From positions 1 to 12,670 of the IMG/VR virus record IMGVR_UViG_2711768058_000009: a stretch of DNA of 12,670 nucleotides, one strand, 5' to 3'. The notes below the pieces were generated by a model, which did no database searches, had not been told where the DNA came from, and saw only the letters and a list, made by a program, of their open reading frames with translations. The translations under genes were made by a program, and so were the position numbers. The first letter of the stretch is position 1. Each line of letters starts with the position of its first letter. This DNA is from a virus. Lineage: Duplodnaviria > Heunggongvirae > Uroviricota > Caudoviricetes. Below are positions 4,078 to 12,504 of this stretch, one piece after another.

Positions 4078-4191
4078 TGATAAACCTCATAACTATTTTA
4101 AGGTTGTATGAACCCCTGCCATTTCAGGCATGCTTAATCAGTTGGTATGGCGTTAATATGGCTGGTGGGTTATCCAGCCGGTGTTTCGTTA

Positions 4192-4353
4192 TTACAGAGA
4201 TACTTTTTTTAACGGGAGGCATTCGCCGGAAAATTTTTGCTCATCTCTTGCCTGAAGGCAGGTTGCCTTACTGTCATAAATTCCGGTAATCATATTCTGT
4301 GACTCACCTGCTGTAAGAAAAACCGTCATCACCAGTGCAAATGCCGAAGTCAT
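4192..4353 (-). CDS. Small hypothetical protein, 53 aa, with a hydrophobic signal-peptide-like N-terminus (MTSAFALVMTVFLTAG...)
   Basis: Not in the ORF track (under 60 aa). The ATG at 4353 overlaps the TGA of the upstream ORF (ATGA, translational coupling). GGAGA 6 nt upstream. Confidence 0.35.
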   Translation of the reverse strand: MTSAFALVMTVFLTAGESQNMITGIYDSKATCLQARDEQKFSGECLPLKKVSL

Positions 4354-4538
4354 CGCTGTTCTCCAAAAATGCCAAGTTGAAGAAGAGCAATTCTTGAAAG
4401 TATGGAATTATCATTCAGAAGATAAGGCTCATATTTCCTCATATTAATGGCATCATCAGTGAAGTCTTTATTACTGAGCTGAATGCCAATATTAAAACAA
4501 CCTTCAGACGTATTAACGTTTGGTAATAACGTTTCCAT
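4350..4538 (-). CDS. Small hypothetical protein, 62 aa
   Basis: ORF with GAGG 8 nt upstream of the ATG at 4538. Its stop overlaps the start of the next small ORF. AT-rich composition suggests an acquired moron. Confidence 0.4.
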   Translation of the reverse strand: METLLPNVNTSEGCFNIGIQLSNKDFTDDAINMRKYEPYLLNDNSILSRIALLQLGIFGEQR

Positions 4539-4713
4539 TATCGCGTCCTCAACAATGAATTTTGTGATGCAGTGCCTGGTGCCTCCAGGTGACGTTAGCC
4601 AGTTAACAATTAACGCCGGATACAGAGCATTCCCGTTACGCCCGTAAAAGACCGCTTGTTTTAACTGTTCCGCGTGCGCTGAGCCGCATTCACCGCATCA
4701 CAAAATTCACTTT

Positions 4714-4766
4714 AAAAAAGGCGGCAGAGCAGTTACGGAGTAAAACTGGTACCGCCAAACGTCACC
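4714..4766 (-). terminator. Candidate intrinsic terminator for leftward transcription: GGCGGUA/UGCCGCC stem followed by U6
   Basis: Minus-strand RNA would read GGCGGUACC...CUGCCGCC then UUUUUU (plus-strand A6 at 4714-4719). The loop is long, so stability is uncertain. Confidence 0.35.
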
Positions 4767-4905
4767 AGAAAATGGATAACAGAGGGCGTTGCAGCGTGGT
4801 TGTCTCTTAAGCGTATGGTCAACCTGACAACCCGGTGTACTCAACGGGGAAGGAATAACCACGCCATACTTACCGCCGCGCCATTTCGCGGATTGCCACA
4901 ACCGG

Positions 4906-4967
4906 AAGCGCACGGTCGAATTAAATTTAACGACACCGTACAGTGAGACGAACTTCACCGTGCGCTT
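4906..4967. repeat. Perfect 11-bp inverted repeat (AAGCGCACGGT / ACCGTGCGCTT) around a 40-nt loop that contains the palindrome TTAAATTTAA
   Basis: Arms read directly at 4906-4916 and 4957-4967. Lies in a roughly 470-bp stretch with no convincing ORF on either strand. Confidence 0.6.
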
Positions 4968-5009
4968 TCGTGTTGTGTGCCTGCTTTTAACCACGTCAGG
5001 CGAGGTGGT

Positions 5010-5038
5010 ATCCTTAAAATCACCACTGTTTTAAGGAT
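5010..5038. promoter_or_regulatory. 10-bp perfect inverted repeat ATCCTTAAAA-N9-TTTTAAGGAT, operator-like, just upstream of the plus-strand membrane ORF
   Basis: Read directly from the sequence. The stem is AT-rich, so it is more likely a protein-binding site than a terminator. It overlaps the stop of the minus ORF and sits 11 nt before the ATG at 5049. Confidence 0.4.
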
Positions 5039-5615
5039 TCATTAAGCAATGTCGCAACCACCAATAAATCCGCTTAAGAACATGAAAATTGATTACTGGT
5101 ATAAAGCGCTTACAGTTGTTGGCGCTGCGTTGTTTGTCTTTAATGGAACGTCTTTTTTTGACAGATATCCCGTTGTTCCATTGGCTTTTTTGTCCGCCGG
5201 CATCTTTTTTATTGGTTTGGGAGAGTGGATTAACCACCCTCTCAAAGTGAGATTTATTGGTCCCGGAGTCTGGGCTCGCGGATATAACCGTTCTTCGTGC
5301 GCACTCGGTATCATCTTCGATATACTTGGTTGTTGCCTGATTGTTACAGGAGTCGTCAAGTTCTTCTGATGTAAAACCGCAAATGGGGCACGCAGAGGGA
5401 ATTTTGAAAAGCGTTTCACCGGGTTCCAGAACAAAATTTTCTGCGGTCTGATTTTGCTTCTCATATTTGTGCTCCGCATCATTGCGAGAGCACATTCTTA
5501 TTCTGAGCGCCTGTTTAAACTCACTGAAGCTGAGGGCTTCTTCGCCTTCGGCAAGGCCTTCGAAGTATTCTTCGTAAGCCTTTTCCATGATTGTGTCGAA
5601 ATCCATATCACTCAT
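5031..5615 (-). CDS. Hypothetical protein; N-terminal 80 aa acidic and helical-looking, C-terminal part low-complexity; true extent uncertain
   Basis: ORF open from the ATG at 5615 to the stop at 5031. The N-terminal part (MSDMDFDTIMEKAYEEYFEGLAEGEE...) looks protein-like. The C-terminal part is exactly codon-antisense to the membrane ORF and K/N/Q/R-rich. The ATG overlaps the stop of the upstream 51-aa ORF. Confidence 0.4.
   Translation of the reverse strand: MSDMDFDTIMEKAYEEYFEGLAEGEEALSFSEFKQALRIRMCSRNDAEHKYEKQNQTAENFVLEPGETLFKIPSACPICGFTSEELDDSCNNQATTKYIEDDTECARRTVISASPDSGTNKSHFERVVNPLSQTNKKDAGGQKSQWNNGISVKKRRSIKDKQRSANNCKRFIPVINFHVLKRIYWWLRHCLMNP
5049..5369 (+). CDS. Small integral membrane protein, 106 aa, about 3 predicted transmembrane helices; candidate superinfection-exclusion or abortive-infection moron
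   Basis: Three hydrophobic segments of about 20 aa separated by charged loops. AT-rich. Transcribed opposite to the surrounding leftward operon, as accessory exclusion genes often are. Lies entirely antisense to the minus ORF 5031..5615, so only one may be real. Confidence 0.45.
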   Translation: MSQPPINPLKNMKIDYWYKALTVVGAALFVFNGTSFFDRYPVVPLAFLSAGIFFIGLGEWINHPLKVRFIGPGVWARGYNRSSCALGIIFDILGCCLIVTGVVKFF

Positions 5616-5763
5616 CTGAGTTTCTTTCCAGCCAGCGACGCGCACCAGCTTCGGTTTTAAACGTTTTGCTTCTGGTATACGTCATGGCGGTGAATGTGCC
5701 GTCCTGGTTGGGGAACACACCGCATACCAGAGATTCGTTGTTGCCAAGATTGAGCGTATCCAT
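5608..5763 (-). CDS. Small hypothetical protein, 51 aa, first gene of the leftward early operon
   Basis: Not in the ORF track. GAGG 7 nt upstream of the ATG at 5763. Stop overlaps the next gene's start (ATGAGTGA). Sequence looks protein-like (…TFKTEAGARRWLERNSDE). Confidence 0.4.
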   Translation of the reverse strand: MDTLNLGNNESLVCGVFPNQDGTFTAMTYTRSKTFKTEAGARRWLERNSDE

Positions 5764-5938
5764 GTTGACCTCATTTCCCCTTAACGCCGGGTAGCGGAAC
5801 TTAAAAACCTGCTGCGCTGCTATTCAAAGTTATCCCGCCGTCATGTTCATACGCCTCGGGCTGGCTACTTAACCCCTGACCACTGCCGGGTAACTCGAGG
5901 TATTGCCCTGCATTCTGTGGGGCGGAGTGGGTGGTAGG

Positions 5939-5988
5939 TATATAATGTACTTTTCGTTCACTGTTGTAAAGTACTTTGAGTACATTTT
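5939..5988 (-). promoter_or_regulatory. pL-like leftward promoter (TTTACA -17- CATTAT on the minus strand) overlapped by operator-like GTAC-core motifs
   Basis: Motifs ATGTACT (5945-5951), AGTACT (5970-5975) and CTTTGAGTACAT (5974-5985). The last is the exact reverse complement of ATGTACTCAAAG found right of the repressor gene. Confidence 0.4.
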
Positions 5989-6060
5989 GTGTGTAAAAAA
6001 ATGAGATGGGATAAAGTGAAGCACAAACCCGGAGGGTGATGCTACCGGATTTATGCTGGT

Positions 6061-6480
6061 TTAAGAGGCTTTTTGTTTTTTCTTTCGTGCTAACTCTTCG
6101 TAAATTGCATTGTACTTCTGTTTTTTCTCCTCAAGAGTTTTTAAAAGTTCATCTGTCTCACTGTCAGGGAGCTCGTCCAGAAGGTCAATGATGATTTTTT
6201 GTCTTGGATTTAACTCCTGATAGAAACGTACCTGTCCACCTTCTTCAGTATCCTCTCCCAAAAGATAGGTTGGTGTTGTTCCTATGAGTGTTGCTAATTC
6301 CCTTAATTTCTCTCGGCGAGGAATTGTTTCGCCATTAAACCATTTGCTAACCGCTTTTGGTGTTAATTTCATTCGACGGGCAATTTCTGCCTGCCTTCCA
6401 TGTTGTTCATAACCAGCGTTATCACAGGCTAGCGCAAGCCTGCTGGCGAACTCTTTACGCGCTTTATCTTCATGAACCAT
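6061..6480 (-). CDS. Prophage repressor, 139 aa: N-terminal XRE-family helix-turn-helix, C-terminal coiled-coil-like region, no S24 peptidase domain (non-cleavable, RacR-like)
   Basis: HTH signature (QAEIARRMKLTPKAVSKWFNGETIP). Divergent from a Cro-like gene. No Shine-Dalgarno sequence before the ATG, and a CTGACA -17- TATCAT promoter places the transcription start at about the ATG (leaderless, like lambda cI from pRM). Confidence 0.8.
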   Translation of the reverse strand: MVHEDKARKEFASRLALACDNAGYEQHGRQAEIARRMKLTPKAVSKWFNGETIPRREKLRELATLIGTTPTYLLGEDTEEGGQVRFYQELNPRQKIIIDLLDELPDSETDELLKTLEEKKQKYNAIYEELARKKKQKAS

Positions 6481-6559
6481 AAGTTCAATGATATTCGCTC
6501 TTGGATGTACTGTCAGTTCTGTTATAGCATGTACTCAAAGTTCACATTATGAGGATGAT
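6481..6559. promoter_or_regulatory. OR-like divergent promoter/operator region between the repressor and the Cro-like gene
   Basis: ATGTACT at 6505-6511 and 6529-6535. The 12-mer ATGTACTCAAAG (6529-6540) is mirrored left of the repressor. The leaderless pRM-like promoter on the minus strand overlaps these motifs. Confidence 0.5.
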
Positions 6560-6814
6560 ATGAACCAGAAAACACTTGAAGATGTAATCAAAACTGTTCG
6601 CGTTTCTGTTGTGGCCGACGTTTGTGGTGTCAGCCAAAGAGCAATCTACAAATGGATGGATAACGGAAAATTGCCTCGCACAGAATATACCGGCGAAACA
6701 AATTACGCTGAAAAAATCGCTCTTGCATCAAACGGATTATTTTCTGCCGATGCAATTTTAACTATTGGCAGGAATAAAACTACTACGAAAAAGCTGATGG
6801 GAGTTGATTCATGA
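6560..6814 (+). CDS. Cro-like (Cro/CI-type HTH) small regulator, 84 aa from the ATG at 6560
   Basis: GAGGA 4 nt upstream of the ATG at 6560. HTH-like segment (VADVCGVSQRAIYKWMDNGKLP). Divergent from the repressor. Stop overlaps the start of the next gene (ATGA). Confidence 0.7.
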   Translation: MNQKTLEDVIKTVRVSVVADVCGVSQRAIYKWMDNGKLPRTEYTGETNYAEKIALASNGLFSADAILTIGRNKTTTKKLMGVDS

Positions 6815-10663: not shown

Positions 10664-10832
10664 TTTTGGTTCAACTAAATACAACGTCAGTTTTGAAGCA
10701 TGGCATGAACTGTTAATGGACTATGCAGAGTTACGTGGTGGCAGTGCTGCTGATGCTGAAGCATGGCGTGATGATTATGAAGCAGGAAAAACTCCGGTCG
10801 AAGCATATTGTGATGAGTGGGGCGATGAATGA
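10656..10832 (+). CDS. Acidic small protein, 58 aa
   Basis: Not in the ORF track (under 60 aa). MADFGSTKYNVSFEAWHELLMDYAELRGG… Start overlaps the upstream stop, and its own stop overlaps the ATG at 10829, so three genes are coupled. Confidence 0.45.
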   Translation: MADFGSTKYNVSFEAWHELLMDYAELRGGSAADAEAWRDDYEAGKTPVEAYCDEWGDE

Positions 10833-11344
10833 GCGAGATTAATTATCAGGAAGGGCATGAAACGGCAGGGCAGGCAAAACCAGTTGCATGGCGATATCGC
10901 TACGTGAAAAAAGACGTTACAGACTTTCAGGGGAAGCCGTGGGCTGGTGACTGGAAATATGTACCGACAAAAGAGGATTGTAACGACAGGCCGAACTATG
11001 AAATTCAGGCCTTATTCATCGGCCCGCCAGTCACGGTGACATCAGAAGGACTGGTTAAAGCCGTGCGCTTTTATGAACAGGTAAAGCGTGAGAATCCGCC
11101 AGTCGAAACAGGAGCATGGAAGGATGCTGTTGACTGGGTGCTCAGAGAGGCCTGCTGCGCTGCCATTCTGGGTAAAGCCGACAATCCACCAGCATCCGGC
11201 AATCAGGTTAGCGAATTAACAATGTGGGTTAAACGACTGGTCAGTCAACTGAAAAAAGCTCAGCCGGACTGCAAATTACCGGAGAAGGCGATGGATTACC
11301 TGAAACGAAATGGACTGATAAGCGTGGAGGATGTTTTACGATGA
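10829..11344 (+). CDS. Hypothetical prophage protein, 171 aa
   Basis: Clean ORF, translationally coupled to the upstream small genes. No family recognised with confidence. Confidence 0.7.
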   Translation: MSEINYQEGHETAGQAKPVAWRYRYVKKDVTDFQGKPWAGDWKYVPTKEDCNDRPNYEIQALFIGPPVTVTSEGLVKAVRFYEQVKRENPPVETGAWKDAVDWVLREACCAAILGKADNPPASGNQVSELTMWVKRLVSQLKKAQPDCKLPEKAMDYLKRNGLISVEDVLR

Positions 11345-11464: not shown

Positions 11465-11644
11465 ATGAAAAACGCATTGCAGTTTTTGTTTGTTGCGTTC
11501 TGGTTGTTCGCATCATGTATGCCCATCATCTTCACAGCAAGGTATATGGAAAAAATTGATGTTTTGATATTAATGTTTGGACATATAAATGCCCTTTTTT
11601 TAGGGGTGTTCATGGCGGTCATGTGCATTGAATACTGGCGGTAA
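11465..11644 (+). CDS. Small hydrophobic membrane peptide, 59 aa, about 2 transmembrane helices
   Basis: GGGGG 4 nt upstream of the ATG at 11465. Very AT-rich. Sequence MKNALQFLFVAFWLFASCMPIIF…LFLGVFMAVMCIEYWR. Flanked by the direct repeats. Confidence 0.45.
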   Translation: MKNALQFLFVAFWLFASCMPIIFTARYMEKIDVLILMFGHINALFLGVFMAVMCIEYWR

Positions 11645-11661
11645 ATACAGCGAACGCCATT

Positions 11662-11697
11662 GGTTTAGTTGGATATTTACTGTGCCGGACAAAAACG
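11662..11697. repeat. Copy B of the direct repeat of about 35 bp, upstream of the hok locus
   Basis: Aligned by eye to copy A at about 70% identity with one 3-4 nt indel. Confidence 0.4.
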
Positions 11698-11698
11698 G

Positions 11699-11727
11699 TT
11701 TGCGGGGAAATCTTAGTTAAGTAGAAT
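11699..11727 (+). promoter_or_regulatory. Candidate promoter for the hok mRNA (weak -35 TTTGCG, 17-nt spacer, -10 TAGAAT)
   Basis: -10 TAGAAT at 11722-11727 is a 5/6 match to consensus. Position is appropriate for a long hok leader. Confidence 0.3.
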
Positions 11728-11789
11728 AACTGCGGGTGCTTGAGGCTATCTGTCTCAGGCATGAACACCAAAAGGCAGATAGAGAAAAG

Positions 11790-11855
11790 CCCCAGTTAAC
11801 ATTACGCGTCCTGCAAGACGCTTAACATTAATCTGAGGCCATATCTATGCGACAC
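11790..11855 (-). ncRNA. Predicted Sok-like antisense RNA; extent approximate
   Basis: Minus-strand promoter TTGACC (plus 11884-11889) -16- GCTAAT (plus 11862-11867) would fire leftward across the leader ORF's RBS and ATG (11835-11849), as in canonical hok/sok loci. Confidence 0.3.
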
Positions 11856-11906
11856 ATAGAGATTAGCCTCTTACGGACCGAAAGGTCAAGGAGAAGCAGG
11901 CTATGA
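11847..11906 (+). CDS. Short mok-like leader ORF, 19 codons, ending in an ATGA overlap with the hok start
   Basis: GAGG 8 nt upstream of the ATG at 11847. Stop TGA at 11904-11906 overlaps the hok ATG at 11903-11905. No long mok frame with an ATG/GTG/TTG start was found overlapping hok. Confidence 0.35.
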   Translation: MRHIEISLLRTERSRRSRL

Positions 11907-12058
11907 AGCAGCAAAAGGCGATGTTAATCGCCCTGATCGTCATCTGTTTAACCGTCATAGTGACGGCACTGGTAACGAGGAAAGACCTCTGCGAGGTACG
12001 AATCCGAACCGGCCAGACGGAGGTCGCTGTCTTCACAGCTTACGAACCTGAGGAGTAA
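11903..12058 (+). CDS. hok: Hok/Gef-family type I toxin, 51 aa (HokD/RelF-like membrane peptide)
   Basis: Translation MKQQKAMLIALIVICLTVIVTALVTRKDLCEVRIRTGQTEVAVFTAYEPEE is a hallmark Hok-family sequence, with an upstream leader ORF and antisense promoter. Confidence 0.9.
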   Translation: MKQQKAMLIALIVICLTVIVTALVTRKDLCEVRIRTGQTEVAVFTAYEPEE

Positions 12059-12066
12059 GAGACCAG

Positions 12067-12088
12067 GCGGGGGAGAAATCTCCCGCCA
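12067..12088 (+). other. GC-rich hairpin at the 3' end of the hok mRNA (GGCGGGGGAG…TCTCCCGCC)
   Basis: Stem of about 9 bp with no following U-tract. Hok mRNAs carry 3' structures involved in fold-back inhibition. Confidence 0.4.
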
Positions 12089-12225
12089 CCTCTGATGTGT
12101 CAGGCATCCTCAACGCACCCGCGCTTAACCCGCTTCGTCGGGTTTTGTTTTTTCCTGGCATTCTGGTTTACAATTCGCACGTCAGCCTGAACAACTGGCA
12201 CCTGCTGCGCCAGCAGAGAAAACCG

Positions 12226-12504
12226 ATGGCGCACGATACCAAGTTACACAATTCTGATAATTCAGCTGTCTTTGCCAGCAGGCACGGGCGGCGTTCCCGC
12301 ACATTCAAATCTGACTGGTTCCAGCATGACCCATGCACAGAAGAACAGGCCGAATGGTTAATTCAGTGCTACCGCAGGCGCGGATACGAGTTTCAGAAAG
12401 ACCTCAGCCTCGACCGACTGCACTGGATAATCTCTGTGAGGCTCCCTTACTCCGAGCGCCCACCGCGTCCATCCCGCACATTCCAGCAACGTATCTGGAG
12501 GTAA
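12226..12504 (+). CDS. Hypothetical protein, 92 aa from the ATG at 12226 (track ORF starts at a GTG at 12097); weak call
   Basis: Its stop TAA at 12502-12504 sits between a GGAGG and the GTG start of the next ORF, suggesting coupling. Composition is Arg/Pro-rich and the RBS is weak. Confidence 0.3.
   Translation: MAHDTKLHNSDNSAVFASRHGRRSRTFKSDWFQHDPCTEEQAEWLIQCYRRRGYEFQKDLSLDRLHWIISVRLPYSERPPRPSRTFQQRIWR

What the first reader, a model, noticed from the sequence alone, without database searches (positions are those of the whole stretch)
11699..12090. Hok-family type I toxin locus with a minimal 19-codon leader ORF instead of a long mok frame
The toxin ORF is unmistakably Hok/Gef-family. In canonical hok/sok, the mok frame overlaps most of hok; here the only upstream ORF with a start codon is 19 codons and ends in ATGA with the hok ATG, and the +1 frame across hok has no ATG/GTG/TTG start. 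A plausible sok-type promoter on the opposite strand (TTGACC -16- GCTAAT) points across the leader RBS. The locus sits among prophage morons and could stabilise the prophage or act in phage exclusion.
Basis: partly seen in the sequence, partly recalled or inferred. Interest (0 to 1): 0.45.

Follow-up and report, generated by a model that had tools for sequence, protein, structure and literature searches.

The report
Prophage hok/sok toxin locus, short leader
This is an ordinary, complete copy of the well-known hok/sok toxin-antitoxin module carried by E. coli lambdoid prophages; its only peculiarity, a 19-codon leader reading frame that stops exactly on the toxin's start codon, is a common natural allele that fits what is already known about how these modules work.

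Summary
Window 11903-12058 encodes a 51-aa Hok/Gef toxin (Pfam 82.9 bits), which NCBI annotation names HokD. The upstream 172 nt match the Rfam hok-leader/sok model (106.7 bits). The only upstream ORF with a start codon is ATG 11847, 19 codons long. Its TGA (11904-11906) overlaps the hok ATG (ATGA).

The locus is larger than reported, about 11700-12153. It holds every element of the plasmid R1 paradigm, as listed in parts.

The short leader arises from a 2-nt deletion in a hairpin loop plus a 1-nt insertion in a small stem. Relatives have leader-to-hok distances of 56, 57, 58 or 59 nt:
- 57 nt: in-frame 70-aa "MokW/MokC"
- 58 nt: R1-type overlapping 68-70-aa Mok
- 56 or 59 nt: short leaders ending in ATGA

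The window's allele is a single haplotype found in about 775 E. coli replicon records, roughly one complete genome in seven, and in 13 of 119 sampled viral contigs.

Published R1 mutagenesis already shows that mok need only be translated up to the hok start. This is therefore a new member of a known kind and of low interest. The natural polymorphism across all reading frames is a tidy but unsurprising corollary.

The parts
11700..11728 (+). hok promoter: -35 TTGCGG (11700-11705) and -10 TAGAAT (11723-11728), with the transcription start inferred at G 11734
   Evidence: TAGAAT followed by 5 nt and then GGGTGCTTGAGGC is conserved in nearly all of about 80 related loci, even where the DNA further upstream is unrelated. 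The Rfam model begins at 11734. A generic promoter scan does not call it.
11734..12153 (+). Full-length hok mRNA, about 420 nt (inferred transcript)
   Evidence: Minimum free energy -168.5 kcal/mol, z-score -6.7 against shuffles. The 5' end is set by homology and the 3' end by the terminator.
11734..11745 (+). tac (translational activator) element at the 5' end of the mRNA
   Evidence: It pairs with 12108-12120 in the full-length fold and with 11787-11793 in the 3'-truncated fold. It is invariant among alleles.
11787..11794 (+). ucb (anti-SD box). It sequesters the leader SD in the full-length mRNA and is captured by tac in the truncated mRNA.
   Evidence: Pairings are listed. They match the Rfam consensus structure and the R1 model described in PMC9841398.
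11785..11853 (-). Sok antisense RNA, about 69 nt: a 5' single-stranded tail followed by a long terminator hairpin and UUUU
   Evidence: Coordinates were transferred from the sokW annotation of phage 933W. The fold is -31.8 kcal/mol, z-score -5.1, with a hairpin followed by UUUUCUCU. It covers the leader SD and AUG but ends 35 nt short of the hok SD.
11860..11889 (-).
   Evidence: Positional homology with R1 (TTGCGC, 17 nt, TATCCT) and 933W (TTGCCT, 17 nt, TAACCT; annotated Sok 5' end 7 nt downstream). Promoter mutations at the homologous site abolish sokW function (PMC8621323). The generic scan is negative.
11835..11838 (+). Leader (mok-equivalent) Shine-Dalgarno sequence GAGG, 8 nt before AUG 11847
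   Evidence: The sequence shows it directly. It pairs with ucb in the full-length fold and with dcb (11867-11870) in the truncated fold. The GAGG mok SD of R1 was shown to be required (PMC9841398).
11847..11906 (+). Leader ORF, 19 codons plus TGA. The stop overlaps the hok AUG (ATGA). It is the mok equivalent, truncated.
   Evidence: The start position is homologous to mokW, mokC and R1 mok. The AUG lies in the 5' arm of the sokT hairpin (11845-11859), as in all alleles.
11867..11870 (+). dcb (downstream complementary box), which pairs with the leader SD in the truncated mRNA
   Evidence: The GAGGC/GCCUC stem is kept in all 18 distinct alleles folded.
11888..11893 (+). hok Shine-Dalgarno sequence AAGGAG, 9 nt before AUG 11903
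   Evidence: The sequence shows it directly. In both predicted conformations, the region from just 5' of the hok AUG to just past it (11898-11906) pairs with 12033-12041 inside the hok coding sequence.
11903..12058 (+). hok toxin gene, 51 aa, HokD/HokW type
   Evidence: Pfam PF01848 at 82.9 bits. NCBIfam Hok subfamily hit is below its cut-off. PGAP names the identical protein WP_000813254.1 HokD.
12066..12087 (+). 3' UTR stem-loop, probably the protective 3' end of the processed (active) mRNA
   Evidence: A 9-bp hairpin with a GAAA loop appears in both folds. In R1, mutations that weaken the equivalent stem abolish toxicity (PMC9841398).
12108..12120 (+). fbi (fold-back inhibition) element complementary to tac
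   Evidence: 12 base pairs with one bulge to 11734-11745 in the minimum-free-energy structure.
12127..12153 (+). Intrinsic terminator of the hok mRNA
   Evidence: Terminator scan: AACCCGCTTCGTCGGGTT followed by TTGTTTTTTC. The window carries a private G-to-T change at 12138 in the stem.

Best explanation

1. The hok mRNA (11734 to about 12153) is made in a closed form. Its 5' end (tac) pairs with its 3' end (fbi), and the leader SD is hidden by ucb.
2. Slow 3' trimming back to the 12066-12087 hairpin lets tac capture ucb. This exposes the leader SD and AUG within the sokT hairpin.
3. Sok (about 11853 to 11785, minus strand) is made constitutively and is unstable. It pairs with that region, blocks leader translation and marks the duplex for RNase III.
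4. When Sok falls, ribosomes translate the 19-codon leader. They run through the sequestered hok SD and start region and terminate on UGA 11904-11906, on top of the hok AUG. Hok is then made, either by unfolding of the helix or by termination-reinitiation.
5. Hok then depolarises the inner membrane.

What is shown and what is inferred:
- Shown by sequence or computation: all the elements are present, the two alternative folds form, Sok overlaps only the leader's translation start, and the allele is conserved.
- Inferred: transcription, 3' processing, translational coupling and toxicity in this particular allele.

The short leader is a derived state. It arose by a 2-nt loop deletion plus a 1-nt stem insertion, which moved the leader into the frame that always stops at the ATGA of hok.
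For: - Identity of the elements: Pfam HOK_GEF and Rfam RF01794 at 106.7 bits against a gathering score of 59.
- Conformational switch: tac/fbi pair in the full-length fold. tac/ucb and SD/dcb pair in the truncated fold. The hok start region is paired in both.
- Sok: it folds with a terminator hairpin and a U tract, and its position is homologous to the annotated sokW.
- Indels: both are structure-neutral. One shortens the sokT loop to 5 nt from 7-9 nt at equal stability. The other changes the small stem GCC/GGC to GACC/GGUC.
- Frame variation: natural alleles with distances of 56, 57, 58 and 59 nt all keep an intact hok.
- Conservation: the 336-nt core 11729-12064 is identical in 8 viral contigs whose 3' UTRs and flanks differ.
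- Frequency: about 775 E. coli replicon records carry the exact 83-nt leader segment, among them ATCC 25922 and an O104:H4 strain. hok was annotated as intact in all 26 sampled rows.
[quoted passage not shown] The 92%-identical hokW-sokW locus is an experimentally verified toxin-antitoxin pair that depends on RNase III and Hfq (PMC8621323).
Against: - No expression or toxicity data exist for this allele.
- A generic sigma-70 scan finds neither promoter. Both rest on homology and conservation.
- The allele is a single haplotype. Its wide distribution could therefore reflect recent spread with prophages rather than selection for function.
- Chromosomal hok loci have been reported as unable to mediate post-segregational killing (statement in bioRxiv 10.1101/2025.08.07.668861).
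- The in-frame 57-nt state is strongly predominant: 105 of 119 sampled loci across 25 haplotypes. That could mean the frame matters more than assumed.
- The window has a private weakening change in the terminator stem.
Confidence: 0.75

Rival explanations
1. The frameshifted leader has uncoupled hok from its activator. The locus would then be a silent relic: transcribed or not, it makes no Hok, like several chromosomal hok loci.
For: It is a single haplotype of a derived state. The in-frame state predominates in 105 of 119 loci. Chromosomal hok loci are reported as inactive in post-segregational killing. K-12-type hokD copies without any leader exist (loci L034 and L038).
Against: The hok ORF, both SD sequences, tac, ucb, dcb, fbi and the Sok elements are all intact. 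The 336-nt core is invariant across different flanks. R1 mutagenesis shows that stops after the hok start are harmless. An independent 59-nt allele reaches the same ATGA-terminated state on a plasmid.
Confidence: 0.13
2. Leader translation is dispensable here. hok would be translated directly from its own strong SD (AAGGAG), and Sok would act only by triggering RNase III decay of the mRNA.
For: The hok SD is close to consensus, 9 nt from the AUG. sokW action depends partly on RNase III.
Against: The hok start region is base-paired in both predicted conformations. [quoted passage not shown] The leader AUG, the SD and their structural context are conserved in every allele.
Confidence: 0.1
3. The 19-aa leader peptide itself is a functional micropeptide, or the variant marks a different regulatory principle such as programmed frameshifting into hok.
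For: None beyond the existence of the ORF.
Against: The first codons of the leader are the most variable part of the whole mRNA. The same nucleotides are read in different frames in sister alleles. Mok amino-acid changes are reported as irrelevant in R1.
Confidence: 0.02

Closest known systems
hokW-sokW (mokW) of Stx2 phages 933W and Sp5
   Same: Same prophage subgroup, with 92% DNA identity over 440 nt. The first 44 residues of Hok are identical. The leader start, SD, sokT hairpin, Sok position, tac, fbi and 3' hairpin are the same. It has been shown experimentally to be a type I toxin-antitoxin pair that assists lysis and phage release (PMC8621323).
   Different: In 933W the leader is 57 nt and in frame, so the annotated MokW is a 70-aa N-terminally extended Hok. 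In the window it is 56 nt and stops on the hok AUG. The sokT loop sequence differs, which probably gives a different Sok specificity. The Hok C-terminus is TAYEPEE rather than VDYESEK. The downstream DNA also differs.
hok/sok/mok (parB) of plasmid R1
   Same: The mRNA architecture and predicted conformational switch are the same. Sok targets the leader's translation start, not that of hok.
   Different: R1 mok lies 58 nt upstream and is a 70-codon ORF in the +1 frame that overlaps nearly all of hok. According to PMC8621323, HokW shares only 44% identity with R1 Hok. R1 is a plasmid, where the role is post-segregational killing.
hokC/mokC/sokC (gef) of E. coli K-12
   Same: The Hok proteins are visibly similar in sequence (identity not computed). 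The 5' leader is the same, beginning GGGTGCTTGAGGC, and the leader has the same 19-codon length.
   Different: mokC is in frame with hokC (57 nt; a 69-aa product as annotated). It is a chromosomal locus interrupted by IS186 nearby.
hokD (relF) of the K-12 Qin prophage
   Same: NCBI annotation names the window's 51-aa protein (WP_000813254.1) HokD. It is followed by a rem-like gene region, as in the Rac and Qin relatives.
   Different: In copies of the K-12 hokD type, unrelated DNA replaces the promoter, leader and Sok. By my own knowledge this is the 3' end of relBE. Loci L034 and L038 show this junction. The window has the full regulatory region.

Membership tests
[quoted passage not shown] | Small hydrophobic toxin with the Hok/Gef domain | tested here: met
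   PF01848 at 82.9 bits, cut-off 22, covering the full model 1-42.
[quoted passage not shown] | Conserved structured 5' leader of the hok mRNA (tac stem, ucb, sokT hairpin, dcb) | tested here: met
   Rfam RF01794 at 106.7 bits against a gathering score of 59, model positions 1-157 of 157, at 11734-11905 on the + strand.
[quoted passage not shown] | Long-range pairing of the 5' end (tac) with the 3' end (fbi), and refolding after 3' truncation (tac/ucb, SD/dcb) | tested here: met
   Predicted minimum-free-energy structures of the full-length and truncated RNAs show exactly these pairings. This is prediction only; no probing data exist.
[quoted passage not shown] | Cis-antisense Sok RNA with its own promoter and terminator, overlapping the leader's translation start but not that of hok | tested here: inconclusive
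   A terminator hairpin with a U tract and a 5' tail are predicted. The promoter hexamers sit at the homologous position. The generic promoter scan is negative and no transcript data exist.
[quoted passage not shown] | mok reading frame that starts upstream of hok and overlaps it extensively | tested here: not met
   The leader starts at the homologous AUG but has 19 codons and stops at 11904-11906, overlapping hok by 4 nt. Published work says only translation up to the hok start is needed. This feature is therefore descriptive of R1 rather than functionally defining.
[quoted passage not shown] | Toxicity of Hok and its neutralisation by Sok | not testable with these tools
   Shown only for the relative hokW-sokW (PMC8621323).
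Prophage hokD/hokW subgroup | Near-identical locus at the same place in lambdoid or Rac-like prophage genomes | tested here: met
   79 phage records match at 80-99% identity. 4938 of 5426 E. coli genomes have a match. The window carries an integrase, xis, a recE-like exonuclease, dicF-dicB and replication genes.

The most novel reading that the evidence does not exclude
The prophage and plasmid hok loci together form a natural experiment across all reading frames. The leader ends on the hok AUG (56 or 59 nt), is fused to Hok (57 nt), or overlaps it out of frame (58 nt). The window's allele would be an obligate termination-reinitiation variant that makes neither Mok nor an extended Hok. It might therefore differ measurably from the predominant in-frame alleles in how much Hok is released, and how fast, once Sok decays. 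In addition, the hypervariable sokT loop, which is where the 2-nt deletion lies, would be a specificity determinant that keeps the several co-resident hok/sok copies from cross-talking.
Probability: 0.3. Interest if true: 0.35.

Novelty: new member of a known kind. Interest (0 to 1): 0.2.

Why it matters
It matters little for discovery. The module, its mechanism and its presence in lambdoid prophages are established, and the toxin is already named HokD by standard annotation. There are three modest points of value.

1. Annotation. No leader or mok gene, and no Sok, is annotated for this allele in RefSeq, even though it sits in about one in seven complete E. coli genomes. These include reference and outbreak strains.
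2. Natural variation. Alleles with 56, 57, 58 and 59 nt independently corroborate the conclusion from R1 mutagenesis that only the act of translating up to the hok start matters.
3. Experimental material. These alleles offer ready-made constructs for measuring how the mode of coupling affects toxin output.

Tried and rejected
- A generic sigma-70 promoter scan of 11600-12250 found nothing. Both promoters are therefore assigned by homology and conservation only.
- From one IncFII plasmid allele I first concluded that R1-type mok is in frame with hok. That allele is a minority form, with 120 records at 99% identity or more. The common R1 allele is 58 nt, +1 frame and 70 codons, matching the published numbering. 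The first conclusion was corrected.
- I first took E. coli LZHX12 to be the source of the window, because the hok region is 100% identical. The whole window is covered only 78% there, and that strain lacks about 2.7 kb of the immunity region. The window therefore comes from a related prophage, not that record.
- A literature search for explicit descriptions of mok-frame variation returned only unrelated papers. A 2026 version of a preprint states that Mok identification was deliberately not attempted.
- The NCBIfam Hok models hit below their curated cut-offs, so family assignment rests on Pfam and Rfam.
- The neighbouring ORFs 10829-11341, 11465-11641 and 12226-12501 have no Pfam or NCBIfam match.
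- Covariation testing of tac/fbi was not attempted, because tac is invariant in the sampled alleles.

Full report
**1. What is in the sequence**

Window 11903-12058 (+) is a 51-codon ORF: MKQQKAMLIALIVICLTVIVTALVTRKDLCEVRIRTGQTEVAVFTAYEPEE. It matches Pfam HOK_GEF over the full model at 82.9 bits against a cut-off of 22. RefSeq annotation names the identical protein HokD.

Fifty-six nucleotides upstream, ATG 11847 opens a 19-codon ORF (MRHIEISLLRTERSRRSRL). Its TGA at 11904-11906 overlaps the hok ATG as ATGA. The remaining frame is open for 64 codons across hok but contains no ATG, GTG or TTG.

That includes the TTGACC, 16-nt spacer and GCTAAT motif on the minus strand.

**2. The locus is bigger than reported and is complete**

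Rfam's hok-leader/sok model (RF01794) matches 11734-11905 end to end at 106.7 bits against a gathering score of 59, E = 6e-24. The 5' end, GGGTGCTTGAGGC, is preceded by TAGAAT (11723-11728) and TTGCGG (11700-11705). This -10 box and its spacing to the 5' end are kept in nearly all of about 80 related loci, even where the DNA further upstream is unrelated.

Folding 11734-12155 gives -168.5 kcal/mol, z-score -6.7. In this full-length fold:
- The first 12 nt (tac) pair with 12108-12120 (fbi).
- The leader Shine-Dalgarno sequence GAGG (11835-11838) pairs with 11789-11794 (ucb).

Folding the RNA truncated after the 12066-12087 hairpin changes the partners:
- tac now pairs with ucb (11787-11793).
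- The leader SD now pairs with GCCU at 11867-11870 (dcb).
- The leader AUG sits in the 5' arm of a small hairpin (11845-11859).

This is the conformational switch described for plasmid R1 (summarised in PMC9841398). In both folds the hok start region (11898-11906) is paired with 12033-12041 inside the hok coding sequence. An intrinsic terminator lies at 12127-12153.

On the minus strand, the segment homologous to the annotated sokW of phage 933W is about 11853 to 11785. It folds into a short 5' tail and a long hairpin followed by UUUUCUCU (-31.8 kcal/mol, z-score -5.1). It covers the leader SD and AUG but ends 35 nt before the hok SD. Sok can therefore control hok only through the leader or through mRNA decay.

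By homology with R1 and 933W, the Sok -10 box is TAATCT (11865-11860), 18 nt from the -35 box TTGACC. A generic sigma-70 scan calls neither promoter.

**3. Where the short leader comes from**

An alignment with phages 933W, Rac and vB_EcoS-640R1 shows that the window differs from the common form by two small indels:
- A 2-nt deletion directly after the leader ATG, in the loop of the sokT hairpin. The loop is 5 nt instead of 7-9 nt, with unchanged stability of -12.9 kcal/mol.
- A 1-nt insertion that converts the small stem GCC/GGC into GACC/GGUC. On the other strand it turns the Sok -35 box from TTGCCT into TTGACC.

The net change is -1 nt, which puts the leader in the frame that always hits the TGA of ATGA.

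The distance from the leader AUG to the hok AUG varies among relatives:

| Distance | Outcome | Examples |
|---|---|---|
| 57 nt | In frame; a 69- to 71-aa N-terminally extended Hok | 933W mokW, K-12 mokC, most prophage copies, a minority IncFII plasmid allele |
| 58 nt | +1 frame; 68-70-aa overlapping Mok | Common R1-type IncF allele, which matches the published numbering of mok AUG at +116 and hok AUG at +174; phage Rac MN652886; plasmid pLH09-a-D |
| 58 nt | Same frame, cut to 49 codons | One chromosomal copy |
| 59 nt | Independent 20-codon leader ending at the same ATGA | A plasmid of strain S56 |

All of these keep an intact hok.

**4. How common the allele is**

Another 105 carry 57-nt leaders across 25 haplotypes, and one carries 58 nt.
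- In complete E. coli genomes, the exact 83-nt leader segment occurs in about 775 replicon records. This follows from 777 records at 99% identity or more, and from 26 consecutive evenly spaced rows at 100% identity and 100% coverage.
- The carriers include ATCC 25922 and O104:H4 and O145:H28 strains. ETEC H10407 and the ST131 strain EC958 match the whole 441-nt locus at 98.6%.
- The 336-nt core from 11729 to 12064 is identical in eight viral contigs whose 3' UTRs and flanks differ.
- The window itself is a Rac-like prophage. It carries an integrase, xis, a recE-like exonuclease, dicF-dicB, immunity genes and replication genes. Its closest match is a prophage of E. coli LZHX12, which covers only 78% of the window.

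**5. Mechanism**

The best-supported reading is the R1 mechanism with a minimal leader. Sok blocks translation of the leader. When Sok decays, ribosomes translate the 19 codons, melt the helix that hides the hok start, and terminate directly on the hok AUG. Hok is then initiated.

Published work already established three things for R1 (PMC9841398, citing Thisted and Gerdes 1992):
- The mok start codon and SD are required.
- Premature stops before the hok start abolish toxicity.
- Stops after the hok start do not.

The 92%-identical hokW-sokW locus is a verified toxin-antitoxin pair. It depends partly on RNase III and Hfq, and it aids lysis and phage release after mitomycin C (PMC8621323).

What I have shown is the presence, arrangement, foldability and conservation of all the parts. 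Transcription, processing, coupling and toxicity of this particular allele are inferred.

The rivals are a silent relic, leader-independent translation, and a functional leader peptide. They are listed with their tests. I give them 0.13, 0.10 and 0.02, against 0.75 for the main reading.

**6. Comparison and novelty**

The locus meets the tested defining features of hok/sok: the toxin domain, the leader structure, and the tac/fbi and tac/ucb switch. It also has a Sok-like antisense unit. It does not have the long overlapping mok frame. That feature is descriptive of R1 rather than functionally required, and sister alleles do not share a common frame either.

It is a new, not individually studied member of a known kind. 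The one thing I could not find stated in the accessible literature is the natural polymorphism across all reading frames. One literature search failed, and a recent survey explicitly left Mok aside. A specialist would find the polymorphism neat, not surprising. Interest is 0.2.

Noticed in passing
window 11844-11859 (and the same place in loci L001-L209): The codons directly after the leader AUG form the loop of the sokT hairpin, which is the target of the Sok 5' tail. They are the most variable part of the whole hok mRNA among prophage alleles, at 0.75 bit per column against about 0 in the hok coding sequence. At least 25 haplotypes exist and all keep the hairpin. E. coli genomes carry a median of 2 and up to 9 copies. 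This looks like diversification of Sok/target specificity between co-resident copies.
   Followed up: partly
L088 (NZ_CP010243.1, plasmid A of E. coli S56) 401-486; L087; L089: The leader-to-hok distance also occurs as 59 nt, which gives an independent 20-codon leader ending on the same ATGA. It also occurs as 58 nt with the +1 frame cut to 49 codons. The part of mok downstream of the hok start is therefore evolutionarily free.
   Followed up: partly
window 4719-4770 (-) and 4350-4538 (-): There is a full-length DicF sRNA (Rfam RF00039, 70.5 bits). It is followed on the same strand by a 62-aa ORF that I recognise from memory as resembling DicB (no search was run). This looks like an ordinary dicF-dicB division-inhibition cassette of Rac/Qin-like prophages.
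   Followed up: partly
window 12041-12043 (Hok Tyr47 codon UAC, within UUACGAA): The penultimate tyrosine codon sits in a UACG context. A preprint states that hokC, hokD and hokE mRNAs undergo TadA A-to-I editing that recodes this position to cysteine (10.1101/2025.08.07.668861). Whether the local structure here fits a TadA substrate was not tested.
   Followed up: no
window 12081, 12083, 12123, 12138: These four substitutions were not seen in any of the ten sampled viral-contig copies of the 56-nt allele. The G-to-T change at 12138 turns the CCCGC-UUCG-GCGGG terminator into a weaker 4-bp core stem with a 6-nt loop. The changes at 12081 and 12083 keep the 3' UTR hairpin paired.
   Followed up: partly
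window 4078-6800 versus L086 (E. coli LZHX12): The nearest complete-genome relative of this prophage lacks about 2.7 kb of the window between the exonuclease gene and the replication genes. That stretch holds dicF-dicB and the immunity region. The same strain also has a truncated late region with an IS66 element after hok. The window therefore represents the more intact form.
   Followed up: no
window 11858-12052, frame +1 relative to hok: The R1-type mok frame remains open for 64 codons without any start codon. It is nearly identical to the C-terminal part of the 68-aa Mok of phage Rac (MN652886). This is probably a by-product of hok codon composition rather than a retained gene.
   Followed up: partly
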